Virus record (IMG/VR): IMGVR_UViG_3300037418_002332
Length of the DNA stretch: 64,000 nucleotides
Direction: 5' to 3' (one strand)
Source of the DNA: a virus
Taxonomy: Duplodnaviria; Caudoviricetes
The translations under genes and the position numbers were made by a program. The notes below the pieces were generated by a model. That model had not been told where the DNA came from and ran no database searches. It saw only the letters and a program-made list of their open reading frames with translations. How positions within the stretch are numbered: position 1 is the first letter of the stretch; each line of letters starts with the position of its first letter. This document shows positions 6,245 through 43,776 of the stretch, piece after piece.

Positions 6245-6252
6245 TATAAATA
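6245..6252 (+). promoter_or_regulatory. T4-type late promoter TATAAATA
   Basis: Exact consensus upstream of gp22. Confidence 0.85.
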
Positions 6253-7535: not shown

Positions 7536-8891
7536 ATGAATAATGAACTTGAAAAGCTTTTGGAAAAGTGGAACCCAGTTCTCGACCTTGATGGTCTTCC
7601 AAAAATTGCTGATTACCATAAAAGAGCAACTACAGCAGTTCTGCTTGAAAACCAAGCAGTTGCTAACAAAGAAACAGTTCGTAGAGAACCATCCCTTTCT
7701 TTGACTTACTTGATGGAAGCTGCTCCAACAAACAGCATGGGTACTTCAGAAGCAGGTACTGGTAACATCGATTACCAAGACCCAATCTTGATCTCCCTTG
7801 TTCGTCGTTCAATGCCTAACTTGATGGCATATGACGTTTGCGGCGTTCAACCAATGACTGGCCCAACCGGCTTGATCTTTGCTCTTAGATCACGTTACTC
7901 AGCTCAAGATGGTATCGAAGCTTTGTTCAACGAAGCTAACACCACTTTCGCTGCATCTGCTGCAGGTAACACTGCTTCAGTAACTGCTGCTGGTTTGCAC
8001 ACCGGTGCTGATCCTTCCCTTCTTATCTCATCAGGTAATACTGCTTACTTGACTGGTAGAGGTATGTCAACTGCTGCTCTTGAAGCACTTGGCGATAAGT
8101 CAACCAACGCTTTCCAAGAAATGTCAATGAGTCTTGAAAAGATCGCCGTTACTGCGGAAGCAAGAGGCGTCAAGGCTGAATATACCCATGAACTTTCACA
8201 AGACTTGAAGGCAACTCACGGTCTTGATGCTGAAAGCGAATTGGCTAACATCCTTTCAAAGGAAATCTTGGCTGAAATCAACCGTCAAGTTATTCGTTCT
8301 ATCTATACAACTGCTACCATTGGTGCACAACAAGGCGGTCTTGCGCAAGCTGGTTACTTCGACCTTGATGTTGACTCAAACGGTCGTTGGATGGAAGAAA
8401 AGTTCAAAGGCTTGATGTATCAAATCGAAAGAGAATGTAACGCTATTGCGCAAGCAACTCGTCAAGGTCGTGGTAACTTCATTATCACTTCTTCAGACGT
8501 TGCATCCGCTCTTTCAATGATCGGTATCTTGAAGTCAACTGATGGTCCTGACCTTCAAGTTGATGACACTGGTAACGTTTTTGCAGGTACCATCCTTGGT
8601 AAGATTAAGGTCTTCATCGACCCTTACTTCACCTCAAACGCTGGTAACAACTTCATCGCCGTCGGTTACAAGGGTTCATCACCTTTCGACGCTGGTATGT
8701 TCTACTGCCCATACGTTCCTTTGACCATGTACAGAACTCAAGGTCAAGATAACTTCCAACCAAAGATTGGTTTCAAAACCAGATACGCTCTCGCAGCGCA
8801 TCCTTTTGCTACCACCGCTGCGGATGGTAAAGTTCATGTTAACAAGAAGAACAAGTACTACAGATTGTTCGCTGTTAAGAACCTTACATAA
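7536..8891 (+). CDS. gp23: Major capsid protein
   Basis: LVRRSMPNLMAYDVCGVQPMTGPTGLIFALR, LAEINRQVIR, FYCPYVPL and KIGFKTRY motifs. Confidence 0.99.
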   Translation: MNNELEKLLEKWNPVLDLDGLPKIADYHKRATTAVLLENQAVANKETVRREPSLSLTYLMEAAPTNSMGTSEAGTGNIDYQDPILISLVRRSMPNLMAYDVCGVQPMTGPTGLIFALRSRYSAQDGIEALFNEANTTFAASAAGNTASVTAAGLHTGADPSLLISSGNTAYLTGRGMSTAALEALGDKSTNAFQEMSMSLEKIAVTAEARGVKAEYTHELSQDLKATHGLDAESELANILSKEILAEINRQVIRSIYTTATIGAQQGGLAQAGYFDLDVDSNGRWMEEKFKGLMYQIERECNAIAQATRQGRGNFIITSSDVASALSMIGILKSTDGPDLQVDDTGNVFAGTILGKIKVFIDPYFTSNAGNNFIAVGYKGSSPFDAGMFYCPYVPLTMYRTQGQDNFQPKIGFKTRYALAAHPFATTAADGKVHVNKKNKYYRLFAVKNLT

Positions 8892-8978: not shown

Positions 8979-9515
8979 ATGCCTGAAACTCAACAAGTTA
9001 GCTTAAACAATGAACTTCACGCGGATAAATTCAAACTCACATTCCGTGAAATTCTCAATACTGAAATTCTATGTCAAGGTGTTTCAATTCCTGGTGTCAC
9101 TGGTGTTGGCCTTGAAATACCAAATTCAATTAATAAGCTTTTCGTGCAGGGTACAAAGTTGGACTATGAATTGTTTACTATACAATTCAAGGTTGATGAA
9201 AATTTGACTACTTGGAAGGAAATTTATCATTGGCTTTTGGCAATCTATGCTCCACAATCAAGAGAGCAATTTGTAAAGTTCCAAAAAGATTTGAAAATGC
9301 CAGTGGTGGGTAATGGTAACAAATTCGGATATGACTGCACTCTTCATAGTTTGAAGAACTCATTCAACCCAAATATGGAAATTCATTTTGTCAATTGCTT
9401 TCCTGTTTCTTTAAGTGCAATTGACTTCACACTTGAGTCTTCTGAAATTATCAAAGCCCAAGCAAGTTTCAGATATGATTACTTCTATTTCTCTGACATG
9501 CGAGTTCCCACTTAA
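8979..9515 (+). CDS. gp3: Tail completion/tube terminator protein
   Basis: CQGVSIPG, F(K)VDENLTTWKEIYHW motifs; follows gp23 as in marine T4-like phages. Confidence 0.88.
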   Translation: MPETQQVSLNNELHADKFKLTFREILNTEILCQGVSIPGVTGVGLEIPNSINKLFVQGTKLDYELFTIQFKVDENLTTWKEIYHWLLAIYAPQSREQFVKFQKDLKMPVVGNGNKFGYDCTLHSLKNSFNPNMEIHFVNCFPVSLSAIDFTLESSEIIKAQASFRYDYFYFSDMRVPT

Positions 9516-9534
9516 GAGCTCATACGAACGGAGG

Positions 9535-9641
9535 GTTAACAAGTCAGTTAACTCAATCACCGATATCAACAGGCTTTTAACATACTTCTTGCTTAACATT
9601 TTTCGGCATTTCATGCCTCAAAAGTTAACGCGAGCGCGAGG
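9535..9641. repeat. Dispersed non-coding element, copy 1
   Basis: 18-nt box GTTAACAAGTCAGTTAAC plus a 44-nt box ending CGCGAGCGCGAGG, both shared with 42965-43053. Confidence 0.85.
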
Positions 9642-9670
9642 CTTGTAGATGTAGCGGATTTTTGACCCTG

Positions 9671-9678
9671 AATAAATA
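9671..9678 (+). promoter_or_regulatory. Possible late promoter AATAAATA
   Basis: One mismatch from consensus, upstream of uvsY/uvsW. Confidence 0.4.
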
Positions 9679-9771
9679 GGTCACGTAATTCTTTTTTCTA
9701 TGTATTTAATTTTACTATGTATTTTCTTCGACAACTGTTTAATCTATACTATGCCAAAATTGGAGATAACT

Positions 9772-10200
9772 ATGCATCTATCTGACTATCAAAATGAATG
9801 GAAAAACGATGCCAAAATCGTAAGTGATGCGCTTGATTCAGAATCATTGAACATCCCTGTACTTCATTCTAAATATTTGACATATCTGTCAAACGAACGC
9901 CGACTGTATAAAAAATTAGCGATAACCAAGGAATCAAAAATTGTCACCCTGACTGATTATTATTCAGGAGTGATTGATGGGAGAGACATTGGTCGTCAAC
10001 CATGGGCAATTCGTGAAGGAAGCAAAGCTTCGGTTCAAAAACGAGTTGAGGGTGACGCAGAAATTTTGAAAATTCAGAATGTGCTAGATGAAAAAGAAGA
10101 GATTGTTTTGTTCTTGAAAGAAGTGATTATCTCAATCAACCAAAGAAATTTCATAATCAAAAATGCAATTGACTACATGAGGTGGTCACAGGGAAATTAA
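9772..10200 (+). CDS. uvsY: Recombination mediator UvsY
   Basis: ESLNIPVLHSKYL and INQRNFIIKNAIDYMRW motifs; start chosen after a GGAG RBS. Confidence 0.9.
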   Translation: MHLSDYQNEWKNDAKIVSDALDSESLNIPVLHSKYLTYLSNERRLYKKLAITKESKIVTLTDYYSGVIDGRDIGRQPWAIREGSKASVQKRVEGDAEILKIQNVLDEKEEIVLFLKEVIISINQRNFIIKNAIDYMRWSQGN

Positions 10201-11675
10201 TATTGACTGAAATAATAAAAGTAACAAAAGTCAGTGAAGTATATCTAAAAATTGAATGTAGCCAAGGTTGTAAACAGGAATTGCAAGAATATTTCTCATT
10301 CTTTGCACCCAATTACAGATTTCATCCAAAGTACAAAAATAGAATGTGGGACGGCAAAATCAAACTGTTCAACATGAAGACATGTAAGTTGTATGTTGGA
10401 TTGATGCAAAAAGTTGCCATATTCTGTAAAGAACGTGGTTATGGTTTGGAATGTGATTTTCAACCAACTGACAAAAGCTTTTCAGTCAATGAATTTGAAG
10501 AGTTCATCAATGATTTGAGTCTTGGTAAGAAACCACGTGATTACCAACAAGAAGCAGTCATTAGAGCTATTAGAAAGAAACGAGTTACATTTCTCAGTCC
10601 TACCGCTTCTGGTAAATCATTCATCATCTATCTTATTTTGAGAATCCTTGGAGTCAAGTCACTCCTTATTGTTCCAACAACCGCACTGTGTCTTCAGATG
10701 AAATCCGACTTTGCGGAATATTCAGAAAACGATGATAATTGGTATGTTGAAGACAAAGTTTCAATTATCATGGGTGGTTATTCAAAAGATAACCTGAAAG
10801 ACATCACCGTATCAACCTGGCAATCACTCGATGAAATGCCAAAGGCTTGGTTTGACGAAAACGACTTCCAATGCGTTATACTTGATGAAGCTCATGGTGG
10901 TAAAGCGGCTTCTATCGGAAAAATTATGGAAGCAATCGAATGGGCTCCATATCGTATTGGTTTGACTGGTACACTGGATGATACCCAAATGTCTGAACTG
11001 ACTATCACTGGTCTATTCGGACCAATCTACGAAGTCACCGAAACTAAAACTCTGATTGAGAACAAAACTCTCAGTGATTTGAAAGTGAAGTGTATCCTGT
11101 TCAACTACAGTGACCAAACTAAAAAGACTATGCAACGAGATTATCAATCTGAAATCGACTTGTTGGTTGGACATAAGAAGCGCAATGACTTCCTAGTCAA
11201 TTTGGCATTATCATTGAAAGGCAATACTCTTTTACTTTTTGGAAGAGTTGACGCCCATGGTAAACCATTATATGAACAATTGAAAAATAACACCAAGGGC
11301 AAAAAGGTGTTCTTCGTGGCTGGTGAAATCAGTCCGAAGATTCGTGAAGAAATTCGTAAAACAGTTGAGGAAGAAAAGAAAGACTGTATCATTGTAGCTT
11401 CTACTGGTACATTCTCAACTGGTACAAACATTATCAATCTTCACAATATCATCCAAGCCCACCCAACTAAATCCAAAATCAAAATTCTCCAAAGCATTGG
11501 TAGAGGTTTGAGAAAAGGAGATGACAAAACTGAATGTACATATTTCGACATATCAGATGACTTGACATGGAAAAGCAAAAAGAATTACACTTACAACCAC
11601 TTCCTTGAACGTTTGAAAATCTACGTCAAAAGTGGGTTCAACTACAAACTGTACAAAGTCGATCTGGAGCAATAA
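10182..11675 (+). CDS. uvsW: DNA helicase UvsW
   Basis: WDGKIKLF, PRDYQ, SPTASGKS, DEAH and QSIGRGLR superfamily 2 motifs. Confidence 0.96.
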   Translation: MVTGKLILTEIIKVTKVSEVYLKIECSQGCKQELQEYFSFFAPNYRFHPKYKNRMWDGKIKLFNMKTCKLYVGLMQKVAIFCKERGYGLECDFQPTDKSFSVNEFEEFINDLSLGKKPRDYQQEAVIRAIRKKRVTFLSPTASGKSFIIYLILRILGVKSLLIVPTTALCLQMKSDFAEYSENDDNWYVEDKVSIIMGGYSKDNLKDITVSTWQSLDEMPKAWFDENDFQCVILDEAHGGKAASIGKIMEAIEWAPYRIGLTGTLDDTQMSELTITGLFGPIYEVTETKTLIENKTLSDLKVKCILFNYSDQTKKTMQRDYQSEIDLLVGHKKRNDFLVNLALSLKGNTLLLFGRVDAHGKPLYEQLKNNTKGKKVFFVAGEISPKIREEIRKTVEEEKKDCIIVASTGTFSTGTNIINLHNIIQAHPTKSKIKILQSIGRGLRKGDDKTECTYFDISDDLTWKSKKNYTYNHFLERLKIYVKSGFNYKLYKVDLEQ

Positions 11676-23136: not shown

Positions 23137-23160
23137 AGAGGGGAAGCAATTCCCCTCTTT
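23137..23160 (+). terminator. GNRA hairpin upstream of gp43 (terminator and/or translational operator)
   Basis: AGAGGGGAA-GCAA-TTCCCCTCT then TT, 9 nt before the AGGAG RBS. Confidence 0.7.
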
Positions 23161-23178
23161 CTCATTTAGGAGCAATCA

Positions 23179-37925: not shown

Positions 37926-38094
37926 TTGGAAAGGAACAAGAGTCAGTATTCAAATTATGGATATGGATTTGAAATCAGTATATTCGGAAAAAGTGTTGCT
38001 TGATACTGATACGATGAATGATTTGTTTGATCGATTTAATCCTGGCGAACATATCTATTCTATCATTCGTTTACGCGAAAATTTGGACAAATAA
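37918..38094 (+). CDS. Small hypothetical protein
   Basis: ATG overlapping the lipoprotein stop. Confidence 0.55.
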   Translation: MADWKGTRVSIQIMDMDLKSVYSEKVLLDTDTMNDLFDRFNPGEHIYSIIRLRENLDK

Positions 38095-38120
38095 AAAGGG
38101 GAGCCATGGCTCCCCTTTTT
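38093..38120. terminator. Bidirectional terminator
   Basis: Perfect 28-nt palindrome AAAAAGGGGAGCCATGGCTCCCCTTTTT between convergent genes. Confidence 0.92.
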
Positions 38121-38122
38121 AG

Positions 38123-40931: not shown

Positions 40932-41411
40932 ATGCTGAAGTTTTCTGAATTTAACAATGCTCCATTAGCCAAAAAATTCGTTGGCTTATTTGTGGATAAA
41001 GAAAGTCAAACAAAGCTTGATTTTTGGGCTCGTTCCATGAACTTTGATTTGACTAAAGATCATGATGGTCAAGATATTGGAATGTTTCCATTTCATGCCA
41101 CTTTGTTCTATACTAATAACGAAGTGAGATACATCAATATGGATTTTGTTTTTCCAAAAATTGAAGCCCAATTCAAGGGCATCGAACTATTCGGTGAAAA
41201 CAATGATATTCCTGTTTTGACAGTACATAAATCAGACAAATTACTTGGATTGCGTGAATATTTTGAAGATCAAGGTTTTACTGATAGCAGACCATGGTCT
41301 CCTCATGTGACTTTGTCATATAACTGGAGCCCAATCAATCCAATTAGCAACATGGTGTTGCCAAACTTTTCAATTTATTTCAACCGTCTTGTAATAGAGG
41401 ATCAAGGATGA
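40932..41411 (+). CDS. 2H phosphodiesterase, Acb1/T4 57B-like
   Basis: HATLFY and PHVTLSYN compared with 57B HSTICYS and PHITLSYN; MLKFSEF start. Confidence 0.75.
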   Translation: MLKFSEFNNAPLAKKFVGLFVDKESQTKLDFWARSMNFDLTKDHDGQDIGMFPFHATLFYTNNEVRYINMDFVFPKIEAQFKGIELFGENNDIPVLTVHKSDKLLGLREYFEDQGFTDSRPWSPHVTLSYNWSPINPISNMVLPNFSIYFNRLVIEDQG

Positions 41412-42118: not shown

Positions 42119-42525
42119 TGAAGATTTCAGAATATCCTGCATATTCAAATCTACAACCTAATGATATTCTGCTGGTTGTAGCAAACACAGACACTGATCC
42201 TGCAACTAAGTCTGTCCGTTACAAGGACATTCTAGCTCATCTATCAGCAAACACTTCAATTACTGCAAATTTTACAGTTACTGGTGATGTAACTGTAAGT
42301 GGTAACAATTACAATGTGACTTCTACTCATGTGAATTACACAAACTTGTCCATCCAAAATCTTAAAGTTTCATCAAACGGTTTCATCGTTAGCACGAAAT
42401 ATACACCGGCAAACTCCTCAATCAGTGAGGCAGGAAGTGCGGGCAAGTTCTCATTTGACGACGATTATATTTATGTGAAAACTGCTAACAATGTGACCAA
42501 AAGAGTAGCATTGTCAACATTCTAA
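42118..42525 (+). CDS. Putative virion structural protein
   Basis: MKISEYP N-terminus; DDDYIYVKTANNVTKRVAL C-terminal motif of fibre/baseplate-associated proteins. Confidence 0.55.
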   Translation: MKISEYPAYSNLQPNDILLVVANTDTDPATKSVRYKDILAHLSANTSITANFTVTGDVTVSGNNYNVTSTHVNYTNLSIQNLKVSSNGFIVSTKYTPANSSISEAGSAGKFSFDDDYIYVKTANNVTKRVALSTF

Positions 42526-42929
42526 TGATTCTGACTGAAAGTAATTTTACCCTTTTCGCTGCAAAATACTATGAAAATCATAATTGTGAGTCGCTAGAAG
42601 AGTTTGAAAAAGATATTGCAATTTTCAAATATCTGAAAAAACTGTTCTTCGTGTATGAGAATAAAAGCGACCTCCGTGAGCGTTTGATATTGAACCATCT
42701 AATAGTTCTGTACAACGTGTTTGAAGCGAAAGCTTGTACTAAAATGTTAGTGATGAAAATGAAAGAGTATCACTCGTTCCTTTTCCCGTTTTTATTGTTC
42801 CTTGGCTATTTGCCTCAGGATAAAATTACCGGAATCTATAATGATCAATTTGTCATTAATGTGAGTGACATTCCTCTCAATGAGGAGATAATCAAAAAGC
42901 TTCGCGAAATTAAGGCCAATGTTAGATAG
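42525..42929 (+). CDS. Conserved T4-like phage protein
   Basis: FAAKYY ... EEFEKD ... LRERLILNHLIVLYNVF motif. Confidence 0.75.
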   Translation: MILTESNFTLFAAKYYENHNCESLEEFEKDIAIFKYLKKLFFVYENKSDLRERLILNHLIVLYNVFEAKACTKMLVMKMKEYHSFLFPFLLFLGYLPQDKITGIYNDQFVINVSDIPLNEEIIKKLREIKANVR

Positions 42930-42964
42930 AGCTTCGCTCTTCGGTTAACCGGCCAGTAACCTTT

Positions 42965-43053
42965 GTTAACGAGTCAGTTGACCAAGGGAAGTAACGACTT
43001 GTTGGGAAGATTTTTCGACATTTCATGTCTCAAAACTTCTCGCGAGCGCGAGG
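42965..43053. repeat. Dispersed non-coding element, copy 2
   Basis: GTTAACGAGTCAGTTGAC plus a 44-nt box matching copy 1 at 39/44 positions. Confidence 0.85.
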
Positions 43054-43130
43054 AATAATTTTATCGCTATTTTCTTGATGTTAATCAAGGGTCTATAAAA
43101 ATAAATCTAATGGTTTTCGAGAAGAATTTC

Positions 43131-43159
43131 TTGATGCGTAACCGAAACAACTCTAGAAT
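43131..43159 (+). promoter_or_regulatory. Sigma70-type promoter
   Basis: TTGATG-N17-TAGAAT, 8 nt before ATG. Confidence 0.55.
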
Positions 43160-43167
43160 GGACGAAA

Positions 43168-43776
43168 ATGGCTTCTTTCGGAATTTGGGATACATTTTTT
43201 GTATATCAATTCGTTAAAAGACTTGTCAAACCTTTTGACAAGTGGGAAGCTTACAAAACTGGCGTCATTGATAAATCAGGGAACATAGTTGTTCCCTATG
43301 ATGACAGAAATGAAGAACAACGTAAGTCATTCAGATACTTTGATTTGCTCGTATTGAATCTCAAAAAAGTTCTAGCCAAAATTCCAGGTGGTTCCACCAA
43401 AATTGCCACATACGCAGCTGCAATCTGGTTGCTCCGTGAAGACGTCAACAAATTCAATCTTGAAACCCTTGAAGAAGATTTCATAACTTTTCTTAAAGAA
43501 GACATTGCTAATACCGCAAATCCGGCGCATATTGCTGGATTGGATAATCCACCTAAGTTCATGAACCATAAGGTGTATAATGTTAAGATGAGTACATTGA
43601 TGAAGATTCGTCACGGTAAAAAGCCAAAAGACAGATATGCAAAATATCTGGATGAGGAAGAAAACGCCGAAGAAATTCGTCAATATTGCCGATCCAATCC
43701 AAATGAATCAGTGATCTTGCAACATCAACCGTCAGGACAAATGATGTTTCTAAGACGAAAGCCACAAAGGAATTAA
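43168..43776 (+). CDS. Conserved T4-like phage protein
   Basis: YQFVKRLVKPFDKWEAYKTGVIDKSGN and YAAAIWLLRE motifs. Confidence 0.75.
   Translation: MASFGIWDTFFVYQFVKRLVKPFDKWEAYKTGVIDKSGNIVVPYDDRNEEQRKSFRYFDLLVLNLKKVLAKIPGGSTKIATYAAAIWLLREDVNKFNLETLEEDFITFLKEDIANTANPAHIAGLDNPPKFMNHKVYNVKMSTLMKIRHGKKPKDRYAKYLDEEENAEEIRQYCRSNPNESVILQHQPSGQMMFLRRKPQRN

What the first reader, a model, noticed from the sequence alone, without database searches (positions are those of the whole stretch)
9535..9641. Dispersed structured non-coding element in two copies with a compensatory base pair
Seen: 9598-9641 ATTTTTCGGCATTTCATGCCTCAAAAGTTAACGCGAGCGCGAGG and 43010-43053 ATTTTTCGACATTTCATGTCTCAAAACTTCTCGCGAGCGCGAGG match at 39/44. 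Two of the five differences are a compensatory pair in the stem GGCAT-TTC-ATGCC versus GACAT-TTC-ATGTC, which extends through TTTT/AAAA. An upstream 18-nt box (GTTAAC-AAGTCA-GTTAAC versus GTTAAC-GAGTCA-GTTGAC) is also shared, 45 versus 27 nt away. The copies occupy two of the largest intergenic gaps in the window. Inference: a selected hairpin or dyad site, such as an origin, packaging or anchoring signal, regulator site or ncRNA.
Basis: seen in the sequence. Interest (0 to 1): 0.72.

Follow-up and report, generated by a model that had tools for sequence, protein, structure and literature searches.

The report
Dispersed two-hairpin RNA cassette in phage
An uncultured soil T4-like phage carries at least three copies of a roughly 120-nt non-coding cassette, inserted between genes that abut in related phages; its long hairpin keeps pairing through matched base changes, so it is a real, selected RNA-level element, but its job is not established.

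Summary
The two copies (A 9533-9666, B 42961-43085) share a 24-nt core found nowhere else in the window (0 expected by chance).

- **Structure.** All 18 aligned pairs form in both copies. Three pairs changed on both sides and one on one side (random-substitution p about 2e-4 to 6e-4).
- **Strand.** G-U pairs and fold z-scores favour the + (sense) strand, hence RNA.
- **Cassette.** An upstream 6-bp hairpin (P1) and an invariant CGCGAGCGCGAGG box complete it.
- **Ortholog.** A relative with 54% UvsY identity keeps a diverged version at the same gp3/uvsY junction: CAUUUCAU, the CGCGAGCGCG box and a 10-bp helix.
- **Further copy.** Assembly-graph evidence shows at least one more copy, identical to A over 44 nt. 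An earlier agent of this scan reported a four-copy family in the same genome.
- **Insertion.** Both sites are tight gene junctions in relatives, so the cassettes look inserted.

It matches no Rfam family. It is not this phage's canonical terminator type, not coding, and not a CRISPR-repeat mimic. It fails the defining features of PeSLs while behaving somewhat like them. The most likely reading is a cis-acting RNA module at transcript boundaries. The function is untested.

The parts
8979..9515 (+). Upstream gene of copy A: gp3-like tail tube/terminator protein
   Evidence: PHROG tail tube, E 2.5e-29. It follows the gp23 major head gene at 7536-8891.
9533..9554 (+). Copy A, hairpin P1: GUUAAC-AAGUCA-GUUAAC, extended by GG/UC
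   Evidence: Sequence; formed in the + strand MFE fold; aligned with copy B.
9588..9634 (+). Copy A, hairpin P2: CUUGC-UUAAC-A-UUUU-UC-GGCAU-UUC-AUGCC-UC-AAAA-GUUAA-C-GCGAG
   Evidence: MFE fold with + strand z -4.5 against - strand z -0.6. 18/18 pairs form. Covariance model score 85 bits.
9629..9641 (+). Copy A, invariant GC box CGCGAGCGCGAGG; its first half forms the 3' base of P2
   Evidence: Only two occurrences in the window. CGCGAG is otherwise nearly absent from the window.
9653..9679 (+). Copy A, 3' flank: weakly conserved GCnnAUUUU..GA patch, then a T4-type late-promoter-like GAATAAATA (9671-9679)
   Evidence: Alignment. ATAAATA lies about 30 nt upstream of late genes at 6245, 7498, 8948, 39920, 48229 and 60599. 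Inference only.
9772..10200 (+). Downstream gene of copy A: uvsY
   Evidence: PHROG UvsY, E 3.3e-29; Pfam PF11056.
42525..42929 (+). Upstream gene of copy B: DUF7207 protein
   Evidence: Pfam PF23837, E 5.9e-33.
42961..42988 (+). Copy B, hairpin P1: GUUAAC-GAGUCA-GUUGAC, with a U-G wobble, extended by CCUU/AAGG
42998..43046 (+). Copy B, hairpin P2: CUUGU-U-GGGAAG-A-UUUU-UC-GACAU-UUC-AUGUC-UC-AAAA-CUUCUC-GCGAG
   Evidence: MFE fold z -2.6; pair counts; covariance model score 88.9 bits.
43037..43064 (+). Copy B, GC box (43041-43053), which can alternatively fold as hairpin P3 (UUCUCGC-GAGC-GCGAGGA) followed by AUAAUUUUAU. This is terminator-like and mutually exclusive with the base of P2.
   Evidence: Terminator scan; short-window folds.
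43071..43136 (+). Copy B, 3' flank with two TTTCTTGATG repeats; the second gives TTGATG-17-TAGAAT
   Evidence: A similar TTTCTTTGATG lies upstream of the orthologous gene in L229.
43168..43776 (+). Downstream gene of copy B: conserved 202-aa protein of unknown function
   Evidence: PHROG 18642; 69 homologues.

Best explanation
The two copies belong to a small family (at least three copies in this roughly 247-kb genome) of a roughly 120-130-nt non-coding cassette. The cassette has been inserted at gene junctions that are tight in related phages.

It is read on the sense (+) strand as RNA inside polycistronic transcripts. It folds into three parts:
- a short hairpin P1 (GUUAAC / rAGUCA loop);
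- a long AU-rich interrupted hairpin P2 with an invariant tip (UUUUUCGrCAUUUCAUGyCUCAAAA);
- a GC box (CGCGAGCGCGAGG) that either closes P2 or, in some copies, forms its own small GC hairpin before a U-rich stretch.

The most likely role is a cis-acting transcript-boundary module. A phage or host RNA-binding factor, or RNA polymerase itself, would recognise the structure together with its conserved tip and GC box. The outcome would be set by processing, 3'-end protection, or modulation of termination and read-through between the flanking genes.

Shown: the copies, the structure, the covariation, the strand preference, the insertion state, and retention in a relative. Inferred: that it is transcribed, that a factor binds it, and which outcome follows.
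For: - **Not chance.** The core occurs twice against 0 expected.
- **Pairing.** All 18 pairs of P2 form in both copies. Three pairs changed on both sides (UA/GC, CG/GC, GC/AU) and one on one side (CG/UG). Pairing is 100%, against at most 58% when partners are slid.
- **Simulation.** Seven random differences in 36 paired positions keep all pairs in 1.6e-4 to 6.4e-4 of trials.
- **Strand.** Fold z is -4.5 and -2.6 on the + strand against -0.6 and -1.5 on the - strand. Several G-U pairs, including the only P1 stem difference, would be A-C mismatches on the other strand.
- **Relative.** L082 (UvsY 54% identical) has, at the same gp3/uvsY junction, CAUUUCAU inside a perfect 10-bp helix, followed by CGCGAGCGCG folded as a GC hairpin.
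- **Further copy.** Logan unitigs break at 9589-9632, and that 44-mer has about 2-2.7x depth. New flanks are seen (GCGAGAATCAGTTAACGGGACTTGTTAAGG on the 5' side; a B-like AATTATTTTATTGCTG on the 3' side).
- **Insertion state.** The DUF7207 gene and the 202-aa gene abut in L228 and in 15/15 IMG/VR relatives. The gap before uvsY has a median of 26 nt in 63 relatives, against 256 nt here.
- **Not a plain terminator.** The phage uses canonical GC-hairpin plus U-run terminators elsewhere (23139-23170, 38094-38122).
Against: - No transcript data exist, so transcription and RNA-level action are inferred.
- The covariation rests on two paralogues plus one diverged orthologue, and the structure was derived from the same sequences.
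- P3 plus the U-run is convincing only in copy B and the B-like flank, not in A.
- Close relatives at the B site do without the cassette, so it is dispensable for the flanking genes.
Confidence: 0.45

Rival explanations
1. A selfish or residual mobile cassette. On this reading it is a non-autonomous element, or the leftover regulatory end of a free-standing homing-endonuclease insertion. It has copied itself into intergenic junctions by the phage's recombination machinery. The hairpins serve its own mobility or are simply tolerated, and it has no role for the phage.
For: - Both sites are tight junctions in relatives.
- Copies A and C are identical over at least 44 nt, which suggests recent duplication or gene conversion.
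- Relatives carry homing endonuclease genes in the same neighbourhood: NUMOD3 between gp23 and gp3 in L224, and GIY-YIG in Ochrobactrum phage OC.
Against: - A relative as distant as 54% UvsY identity keeps the tip and the GC box at the same junction. This argues for long-term purifying selection.
- No terminal inverted repeats or target duplications beyond chance level.
- No transposase or endonuclease lies next to any copy in the window.
- P1 and P2 are unlike each other, unlike the two ends of IS200/IS605-type elements.
Confidence: 0.2
2. A PeSL-type promoter-terminator cassette in the strict sense. The hairpin would terminate upstream transcription, a promoter in the cassette would restart it, and the repeats would mainly serve as recombination linkers for gene shuffling.
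For: - It is an intergenic, indel-associated cassette in a T4-like phage.
- B has a terminator-like P3 and a TTGATG-17-TAGAAT site downstream.
- A has a late-promoter-like GAATAAATA 30 nt downstream.
- L082 has repeated GGGTCTTGAT boxes that resemble the degraded multiple -35 copies described for PeSLs (PMC4122927).
Against: - No sigma70-like promoter in A, and none inside the conserved part of B.
- The conserved part is the hairpin and GC box, not a promoter.
- P2 has no U-run.
- Only 2 copies in 64 kb, next to core genes. PeSLs number about 50 per genome and concentrate in hyperplastic regions upstream of ORFans (PMC2839356).
Confidence: 0.15
3. A DNA-level site, such as a replication origin (as at T4 ori(uvsY)), a packaging site, or another protein-bound dyad, with the hairpin extruded as DNA.
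For: - Copy A sits directly upstream of uvsY, where T4 has oriF (established knowledge).
- L082 has six phased GGGTCTTGAT repeats upstream of the hairpin, and an AT-rich stretch plus a perfect TTGACA-17-TATAAT promoter downstream.
- Earlier notes report iteron-like repeats next to the gp6/gp7 copy. This was not checked here.
Against: - A and B have no iterons.
- A TGCTT Mot-box-like string occurs only in A.
- Three both-sided changes in one dyad do not fit protein half-sites.
- G-U pairs and strand-asymmetric fold scores favour RNA.
- The earlier follow-up on the same family found nothing supporting an origin.
Confidence: 0.1
4. A gene for a small trans-acting RNA, possibly derived from a 3' UTR, present in several paralogous copies.
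For: - A compact two- to three-hairpin unit lies just after stop codons.
- In B it ends in a GC hairpin plus a U-rich tail.
- The loop sequences are conserved.
Against: - No promoter upstream of P1.
- Copy A lacks a terminator.
- No Rfam match even at E up to 10.
- No obvious target complementarity was examined or found.
Confidence: 0.08

Closest known systems
PeSLs / PmSLs (promoter-early or -middle stem-loop cassettes) of T4-type phages (Arbiol et al. 2010, PMC2839356; Comeau et al. 2014, PMC4122927)
   Same: Short conserved intergenic cassettes with a stem-loop in T4-like genomes. They are dispersed within one genome, oriented with transcription, and associated with insertion/deletion differences between related phages.
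   Different: - No sigma70 or Mot-type promoter in the conserved core.
- The hairpin is long, AU-rich and interrupted, with a conserved tip. PeSL hairpins are G-run/C-run terminator stems.
- About 3-4 copies per genome rather than about 50.
- The copies lie beside core genes (gp3/uvsY, reportedly gp6/gp7), not in front of ORFans in hyperplastic regions.
putL/putR antiterminator RNAs of phage HK022 and nut sites of lambda (from established knowledge; not compared by sequence here)
   Same: Few dispersed copies per genome of a cis-acting RNA with one or two hairpins. Differences between the copies preserve pairing. These elements act on the polymerase that transcribes them, upstream of terminators.
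   Different: No sequence relation is known. The position relative to promoters and terminators is not established here. T4-like phages are not known to use such RNAs.
RNase III processing hairpins between genes of T7-group phages (from established knowledge)
   Same: Several similar intergenic hairpins of about 20 bp with internal loops, inside polycistronic mRNAs. They leave protective 3' hairpins after cleavage.
   Different: The L082 version has only a 10-bp helix. No cleavage data exist. The conserved GC box and P1 have no counterpart.
REP/BIME extragenic palindromes of bacteria (from established knowledge)
   Same: Dispersed imperfect palindromes in 3' untranslated regions. They stabilise upstream mRNA and spread within a genome.
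   Different: REPs are host-chromosome elements in hundreds of copies, mobilised by RAYT transposases and marked by a GTAG motif. None of this is seen here.

Membership tests
PeSL | Strong sigma70-like promoter (-35, about 17 nt, -10, AT-rich upstream) inside the conserved cassette | tested here: not met
   The promoter scan finds none in 9300-9900. In B the only + strand candidates lie outside the part shared with A.
PeSL | Stable stem-loop that works as a terminator or attenuator (typically G-run/C-run) | tested here: inconclusive
   P2 is AU-rich and has no U-run. Only B's alternative P3 hairpin meets a terminator consensus. Activity is not testable here.
PeSL | Dozens of copies concentrated in hyperplastic regions, mostly upstream of ORFans | tested here: not met
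   Two copies in 64 kb by pattern and covariance model. At least one more exists elsewhere in the genome. The sites flank gp3/uvsY and DUF7207.
PeSL | Association with indels between related phages | tested here: met
   The B site is empty in L228 and in 15/15 IMG/VR relatives. The uvsY upstream gap has a median of 26 nt in relatives.
Intrinsic (rho-independent) terminator | GC-rich hairpin immediately followed by a U-run | tested here: not met
   None in copy A, and P2 lacks a U-run in both copies. The phage's own terminators at 23139 and 38094 are canonical. Only P3 of copy B qualifies.
Any Rfam family (riboswitches, ribozymes, sRNAs, phage RNAs) | Covariance-model match at or near the gathering score | tested here: not met
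   No match at gathering threshold over the window. At E up to 10, nothing was found for A, and only 11-15-bit noise for B.
T4-type origin (ori(uvsY)/ori(34)) or iteron origin | Shared middle-type promoter plus a DNA unwinding element, or arrays of iterons next to the site | tested here: not met
   No iterons in the A or B gaps. The TGCTT-like box occurs only in A. Iteron-like repeats are seen only in L082.
Solitary CRISPR-repeat mimic (Racr) | Core matches a repeat that occurs in arrays in prokaryote genomes | tested here: not met
   The scan of GTDB genomes gave two isolated matches inside coding-like sequence and no arrays. This covers only exact matches to one 20-nt pattern.
Small protein-coding gene | Conserved open frame with substitutions biased to synonymous sites | tested here: not met
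   + strand micro-ORF: 4 of 5 differences change the residue, and L082 has ATT in place of ATG. - strand ORF: only MKCRK is shared, and L082 reads ATGAAATGA.
HK022 put-like antiterminator RNA | Two adjacent stem-loops downstream of a promoter that make RNA polymerase read through terminators | not testable with these tools
   Two hairpins and pair-preserving differences are present. Promoter position and read-through need experiments.

The most novel reading that the evidence does not exclude
The cassette is a new class of factor-recruiting or polymerase-modifying RNA in T4-like phages. It would be a put/nut-like module whose conserved tip (CAUUUCAU) and GC box switch between a long antiterminator-type hairpin (P2) and a small GC terminator-type hairpin (P3). 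The switch would gate read-through between gene blocks, and the module itself can move to new junctions.
Probability: 0.1. Interest if true: 0.75.

Novelty: new variant of a known kind. Interest (0 to 1): 0.45.

Why it matters
T4-like phages of soil are almost unstudied at the level of gene regulation. This is a sequence- and structure-conserved RNA cassette that has been inserted at otherwise tight junctions between core genes, and that a distant relative retains. It gives a concrete, small and testable handle on how such phages partition long same-strand transcription units. It also bears on how non-coding modules spread within phage genomes. If it is only a tolerated mobile remnant, it is still a useful marker of recombination-driven genome plasticity beyond the enterobacterial PeSL examples.

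Tried and rejected
- **Pattern scans.** Scans of IMG/VR and JGI metagenome contigs for CATTTCAT-N10-22-CGCGAGCGCG gave only chance hits in high-GC DNA. The exact core and the P1 box gave nothing meaningful in IMG/VR.
- **BLAST.** blastn against isolated phages found nothing.
- **Related uvsY loci.** 80 IMG/VR uvsY loci, plus L084, L224, L226 and L227, lack the element.
- **Covariance model.** Model R1 finds no further copy in the window. It scores L082 only 9.2 bits because it was built from two near-identical sequences.
- **Own genome.** No whole genome is held. The 247-kb contigs could not be fetched, so the other copies were seen only indirectly.
- **RNA runs.** No RNA holder was listed.
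- **ORF readings.** The micro-ORF and antisense-ORF readings were rejected.
- **CRISPR-repeat mimic.** This reading was rejected.
- **TCTTGAT as a general promoter box.** Not supported; it is not enriched at gene starts in the window.
- **Possible cassette ends in B.** The 8-nt inverted repeat flanking B (42940/43139) is at chance level.
- **Late-to-early boundary marker.** My first idea, that the cassettes mark late-to-early operon boundaries, was dropped. B follows an Acb1/DUF7207 cluster, and another copy reportedly lies between gp6 and gp7.

Full report
**Context.** The window is part of an uncultured T4-like phage.
- Its gene order includes gp23 major head protein (7536-8891), a gp3-like tail tube/terminator protein (8979-9515), UvsY (9772-10200) and a UvsW helicase (10182-11675).
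- No isolated phage matches it at the DNA level. The capsid protein is 62.6% identical to that of Ochrobactrum phage vB_OspM_OC and about 55% identical to cyanomyoviruses.
- The same DNA occurs in six soil or rhizosphere metagenome runs, on contigs of up to about 247 kb.
- Almost all genes lie on the + strand.

**Observation.**
- The 24-nt core occurs exactly twice in the window even with three mismatches allowed; none was found in 100 shuffles.
- The GC box CGCGAGCGCGAGG occurs only at the two sites.
- CGCGAG is otherwise almost absent from this 38% GC sequence.
- The two gaps (256 and 238 nt) are the largest and third-largest real intergenic gaps.

**Anatomy.**
- In A it reads CUUGC-UUAAC-A-UUUU-UC-GGCAU-UUC-AUGCC-UC-AAAA-GUUAA-C-GCGAG (9588-9634).
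- In B it reads CUUGU-U-GGGAAG-A-UUUU-UC-GACAU-UUC-AUGUC-UC-AAAA-CUUCUC-GCGAG (42998-43046).

On the MAFFT alignment of the two copies, all 18 pairs form in both.
- Three pairs changed on both sides (U-A/G-C, C-G/G-C, G-C/A-U) and one on one side (C-G/U-G).
- Pairing is 100%, against 28-58% when partners are slid by 1-3 columns.
- In a simulation, seven random differences among the 36 paired positions left every pair intact in only 1.6e-4 to 6.4e-4 of trials.
- The caveat is that the structure was derived from these same two sequences.

The upstream 18-nt box is itself a hairpin, P1.
- It has a 6-bp GUUAAC stem and a 6-nt rAGUCA loop.
- Its only stem difference turns U-A into U-G.
- Its flanking extension pairs as G-C in A and U-A in B.

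**Strand.**
- The + strand folds are much better than shuffled controls (z -4.5 and -2.6). The - strand folds are not (z -0.6 and -1.5).
- Several G-U pairs would be A-C mismatches on the other strand.
- Both copies point the same way as the flanking genes.
- This favours an RNA-level structure on the sense strand over a symmetrical protein-binding DNA dyad. Three symmetrical half-site changes would also be odd for a dyad.

**The GC box and a competing hairpin.**
- In B the box can instead fold as UUCUCGC-GAGC-GCGAGGA, followed by AUAAUUUUAU. The terminator scan flags this. It excludes the base of P2.
- In A no such hairpin or terminator is predicted.
- The phage has textbook terminators elsewhere: GAGGGGAAGCAATTCCCCTC plus a T-run near 23139, and a bidirectional GGGGAGCCATGGCTCCCC near 38094.
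- P2 is therefore not simply this phage's way of ending transcripts.

**Relatives.** Protein searches gave few relatives.
- L082, whose UvsY is 54% identical, has a 548-nt gap at the same gp3/uvsY junction.
- That gap contains CUUAACAGUUUC...CAUUUCAU...GAAACUGUU, followed directly by CGCGAGCGCGCGAAG.
- The arms form a perfect 10-bp helix around the conserved CAUUUCAU. The GC box folds as UUCGCG-AGCG-CGCGAA.
- At this protein divergence, neutral DNA would be unrecognisable. The tip, the GC box and a helix (in a different register) have therefore been kept by selection, or the family is active in both lineages.
- Other relatives lack it: L084, L224 (33-nt gap), L226, L227, and 80 IMG/VR loci.

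**Insertion state.**
- The gene pair flanking B (DUF7207 and the 202-aa gene) abuts within 0-3 nt in L228 and in all 15 IMG/VR relatives.
- The gap before uvsY has a median of 26 nt in 63 relatives.
- Both cassettes thus occupy junctions that are ancestrally tight.

**Further copies.**
- Laying Logan contigs of four runs on 9400-9800 showed that the assembly graph breaks exactly around 9589-9632.
- That 44-mer forms its own unitig at about 2x (X1) to 2.7x (X5) the depth of its flanks.
- Other contigs enter the core from different flanks: GCGAGAATCAGTTAACGGGACTTGTTAAGG on the 5' side, which carries a P1-like CAGTTAAC, and a B-like AATTATTTTATTGCTGATTTTTAGATG on the 3' side.
- B differs from A inside the 44-mer, so this is at least a third copy.
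- An earlier follow-up of this scan (e1-5404219) reported a four-copy family of hairpin cassettes in the same genome, including one in the gp6/gp7 gap, and named PeSLs as the closest known. My evidence agrees on an extra copy. I could not read those regions myself.
- Among strains, the only variation seen was a 1-nt insertion in the spacer between P1 and P2.

**What it is not.**
- No Rfam family matches, even at E up to 10.
- It is not coding. The + strand micro-ORF (MPQKLTRARGL / MSQNFSRARG...) has four of five differences non-synonymous, and L082 has no ATG. The - strand ORF shares only MKCRK, and L082 reads ATGAAATGA.
- It is not a CRISPR-repeat mimic as far as GTDB genomes show.
- Copies A and B have no iterons and no shared Mot-type promoter, so the origin reading has no direct support. 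L082 does have six phased GGGTCTTGAT repeats and an AT-rich stretch, and earlier notes mention repeats beside the gp6/gp7 copy.

**Comparison with PeSLs.**
- The behaviour is similar: an intergenic, oriented, indel-associated cassette with a stem-loop in a T4-like genome.
- The defining features fail. There is no sigma70 promoter in the conserved part. The hairpin is of a different kind. The copy number is low. The sites lie beside core genes.
- I therefore do not file it as a PeSL.

**Mechanism.** The best-supported statement is that this is a cis-acting structured RNA module inside sense transcripts, maintained by selection and able to spread to new junctions.
- The outcome it controls is inference: processing or 3'-end protection, attenuation, or put/nut-like modification of read-through through the P2/P3 alternative.
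- I put 0.45 on the cis-RNA boundary-module reading.
- The rivals are a selfish or residual mobile cassette (0.2), a true promoter-terminator PeSL-type cassette (0.15), a DNA-level origin or binding site (0.1), and a trans-acting small RNA (0.08).

**Verdict.** This is a real, selected, structured non-coding family of modest copy number, already noticed elsewhere in this genome by the scan. It is a new variant of the known kind 'dispersed regulatory hairpin cassettes of T4-like phages'. Its function is untested.

Noticed in passing
L082:496-712: Six phased copies of GGGTCTTGAT (start-to-start spacing 46, 22, 95, 11 and 23 nt) lie directly upstream of the relative's version of the hairpin. They are followed by an AT-rich stretch and a perfect TTGACA-17-TATAAT promoter before uvsY. 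The layout looks origin-like or like a degraded multiple -35 array.
   Followed up: partly
window 23139-23170 and 38094-38122: Canonical intrinsic terminators: GAGGGGAA-GCAA-TTCCCCTC plus a T-run, and a bidirectional AAAAGGGGAGCCATGGCTCCCCTTTTT between convergent genes. They show which terminator type this phage uses.
   Followed up: partly
window 6245, 7498, 8948, 39920, 48229, 60599: T4-type late-promoter motif (T)ATAAATA about 30 nt upstream of start codons, including those of gp23 and gp3. One further copy at 9672 lies 100 nt upstream of uvsY.
   Followed up: partly
window 40932-41411: A 159-aa protein matching anti-CBASS Acb1 (PF23474, just above its cut-off) and the 2'-5' RNA ligase superfamily. 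It lies in the cluster upstream of copy B. The same cluster order is kept in L228.
   Followed up: no
L229:1-53 and L230:1-44: In two relatives (66-69% identical 202-aa protein) the Logan contigs start 44-53 nt upstream of the orthologous gene. The sequence there resembles B's 3' flank (TTTCTTTGATG..TTAACAAG). A contig break here would fit a repeated element just upstream, but this is only suggestive.
   Followed up: no
L224:4761-5507 and L231:5492-6430: Relatives carry free-standing homing endonuclease genes between the capsid gene and gp3: NUMOD3 in L224, and a GIY-YIG seg-like gene in Ochrobactrum phage OC. This neighbourhood is an insertion hot spot.
   Followed up: no
window 42928-42953: Right at the DUF7207 stop codon there is a small AGAGC-UUC-GCUCU hairpin, followed by the 10-nt palindrome CGGTTAACCG, which adds another GTTAAC. 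These are extra structured pieces upstream of copy B's P1 that copy A lacks.
   Followed up: no
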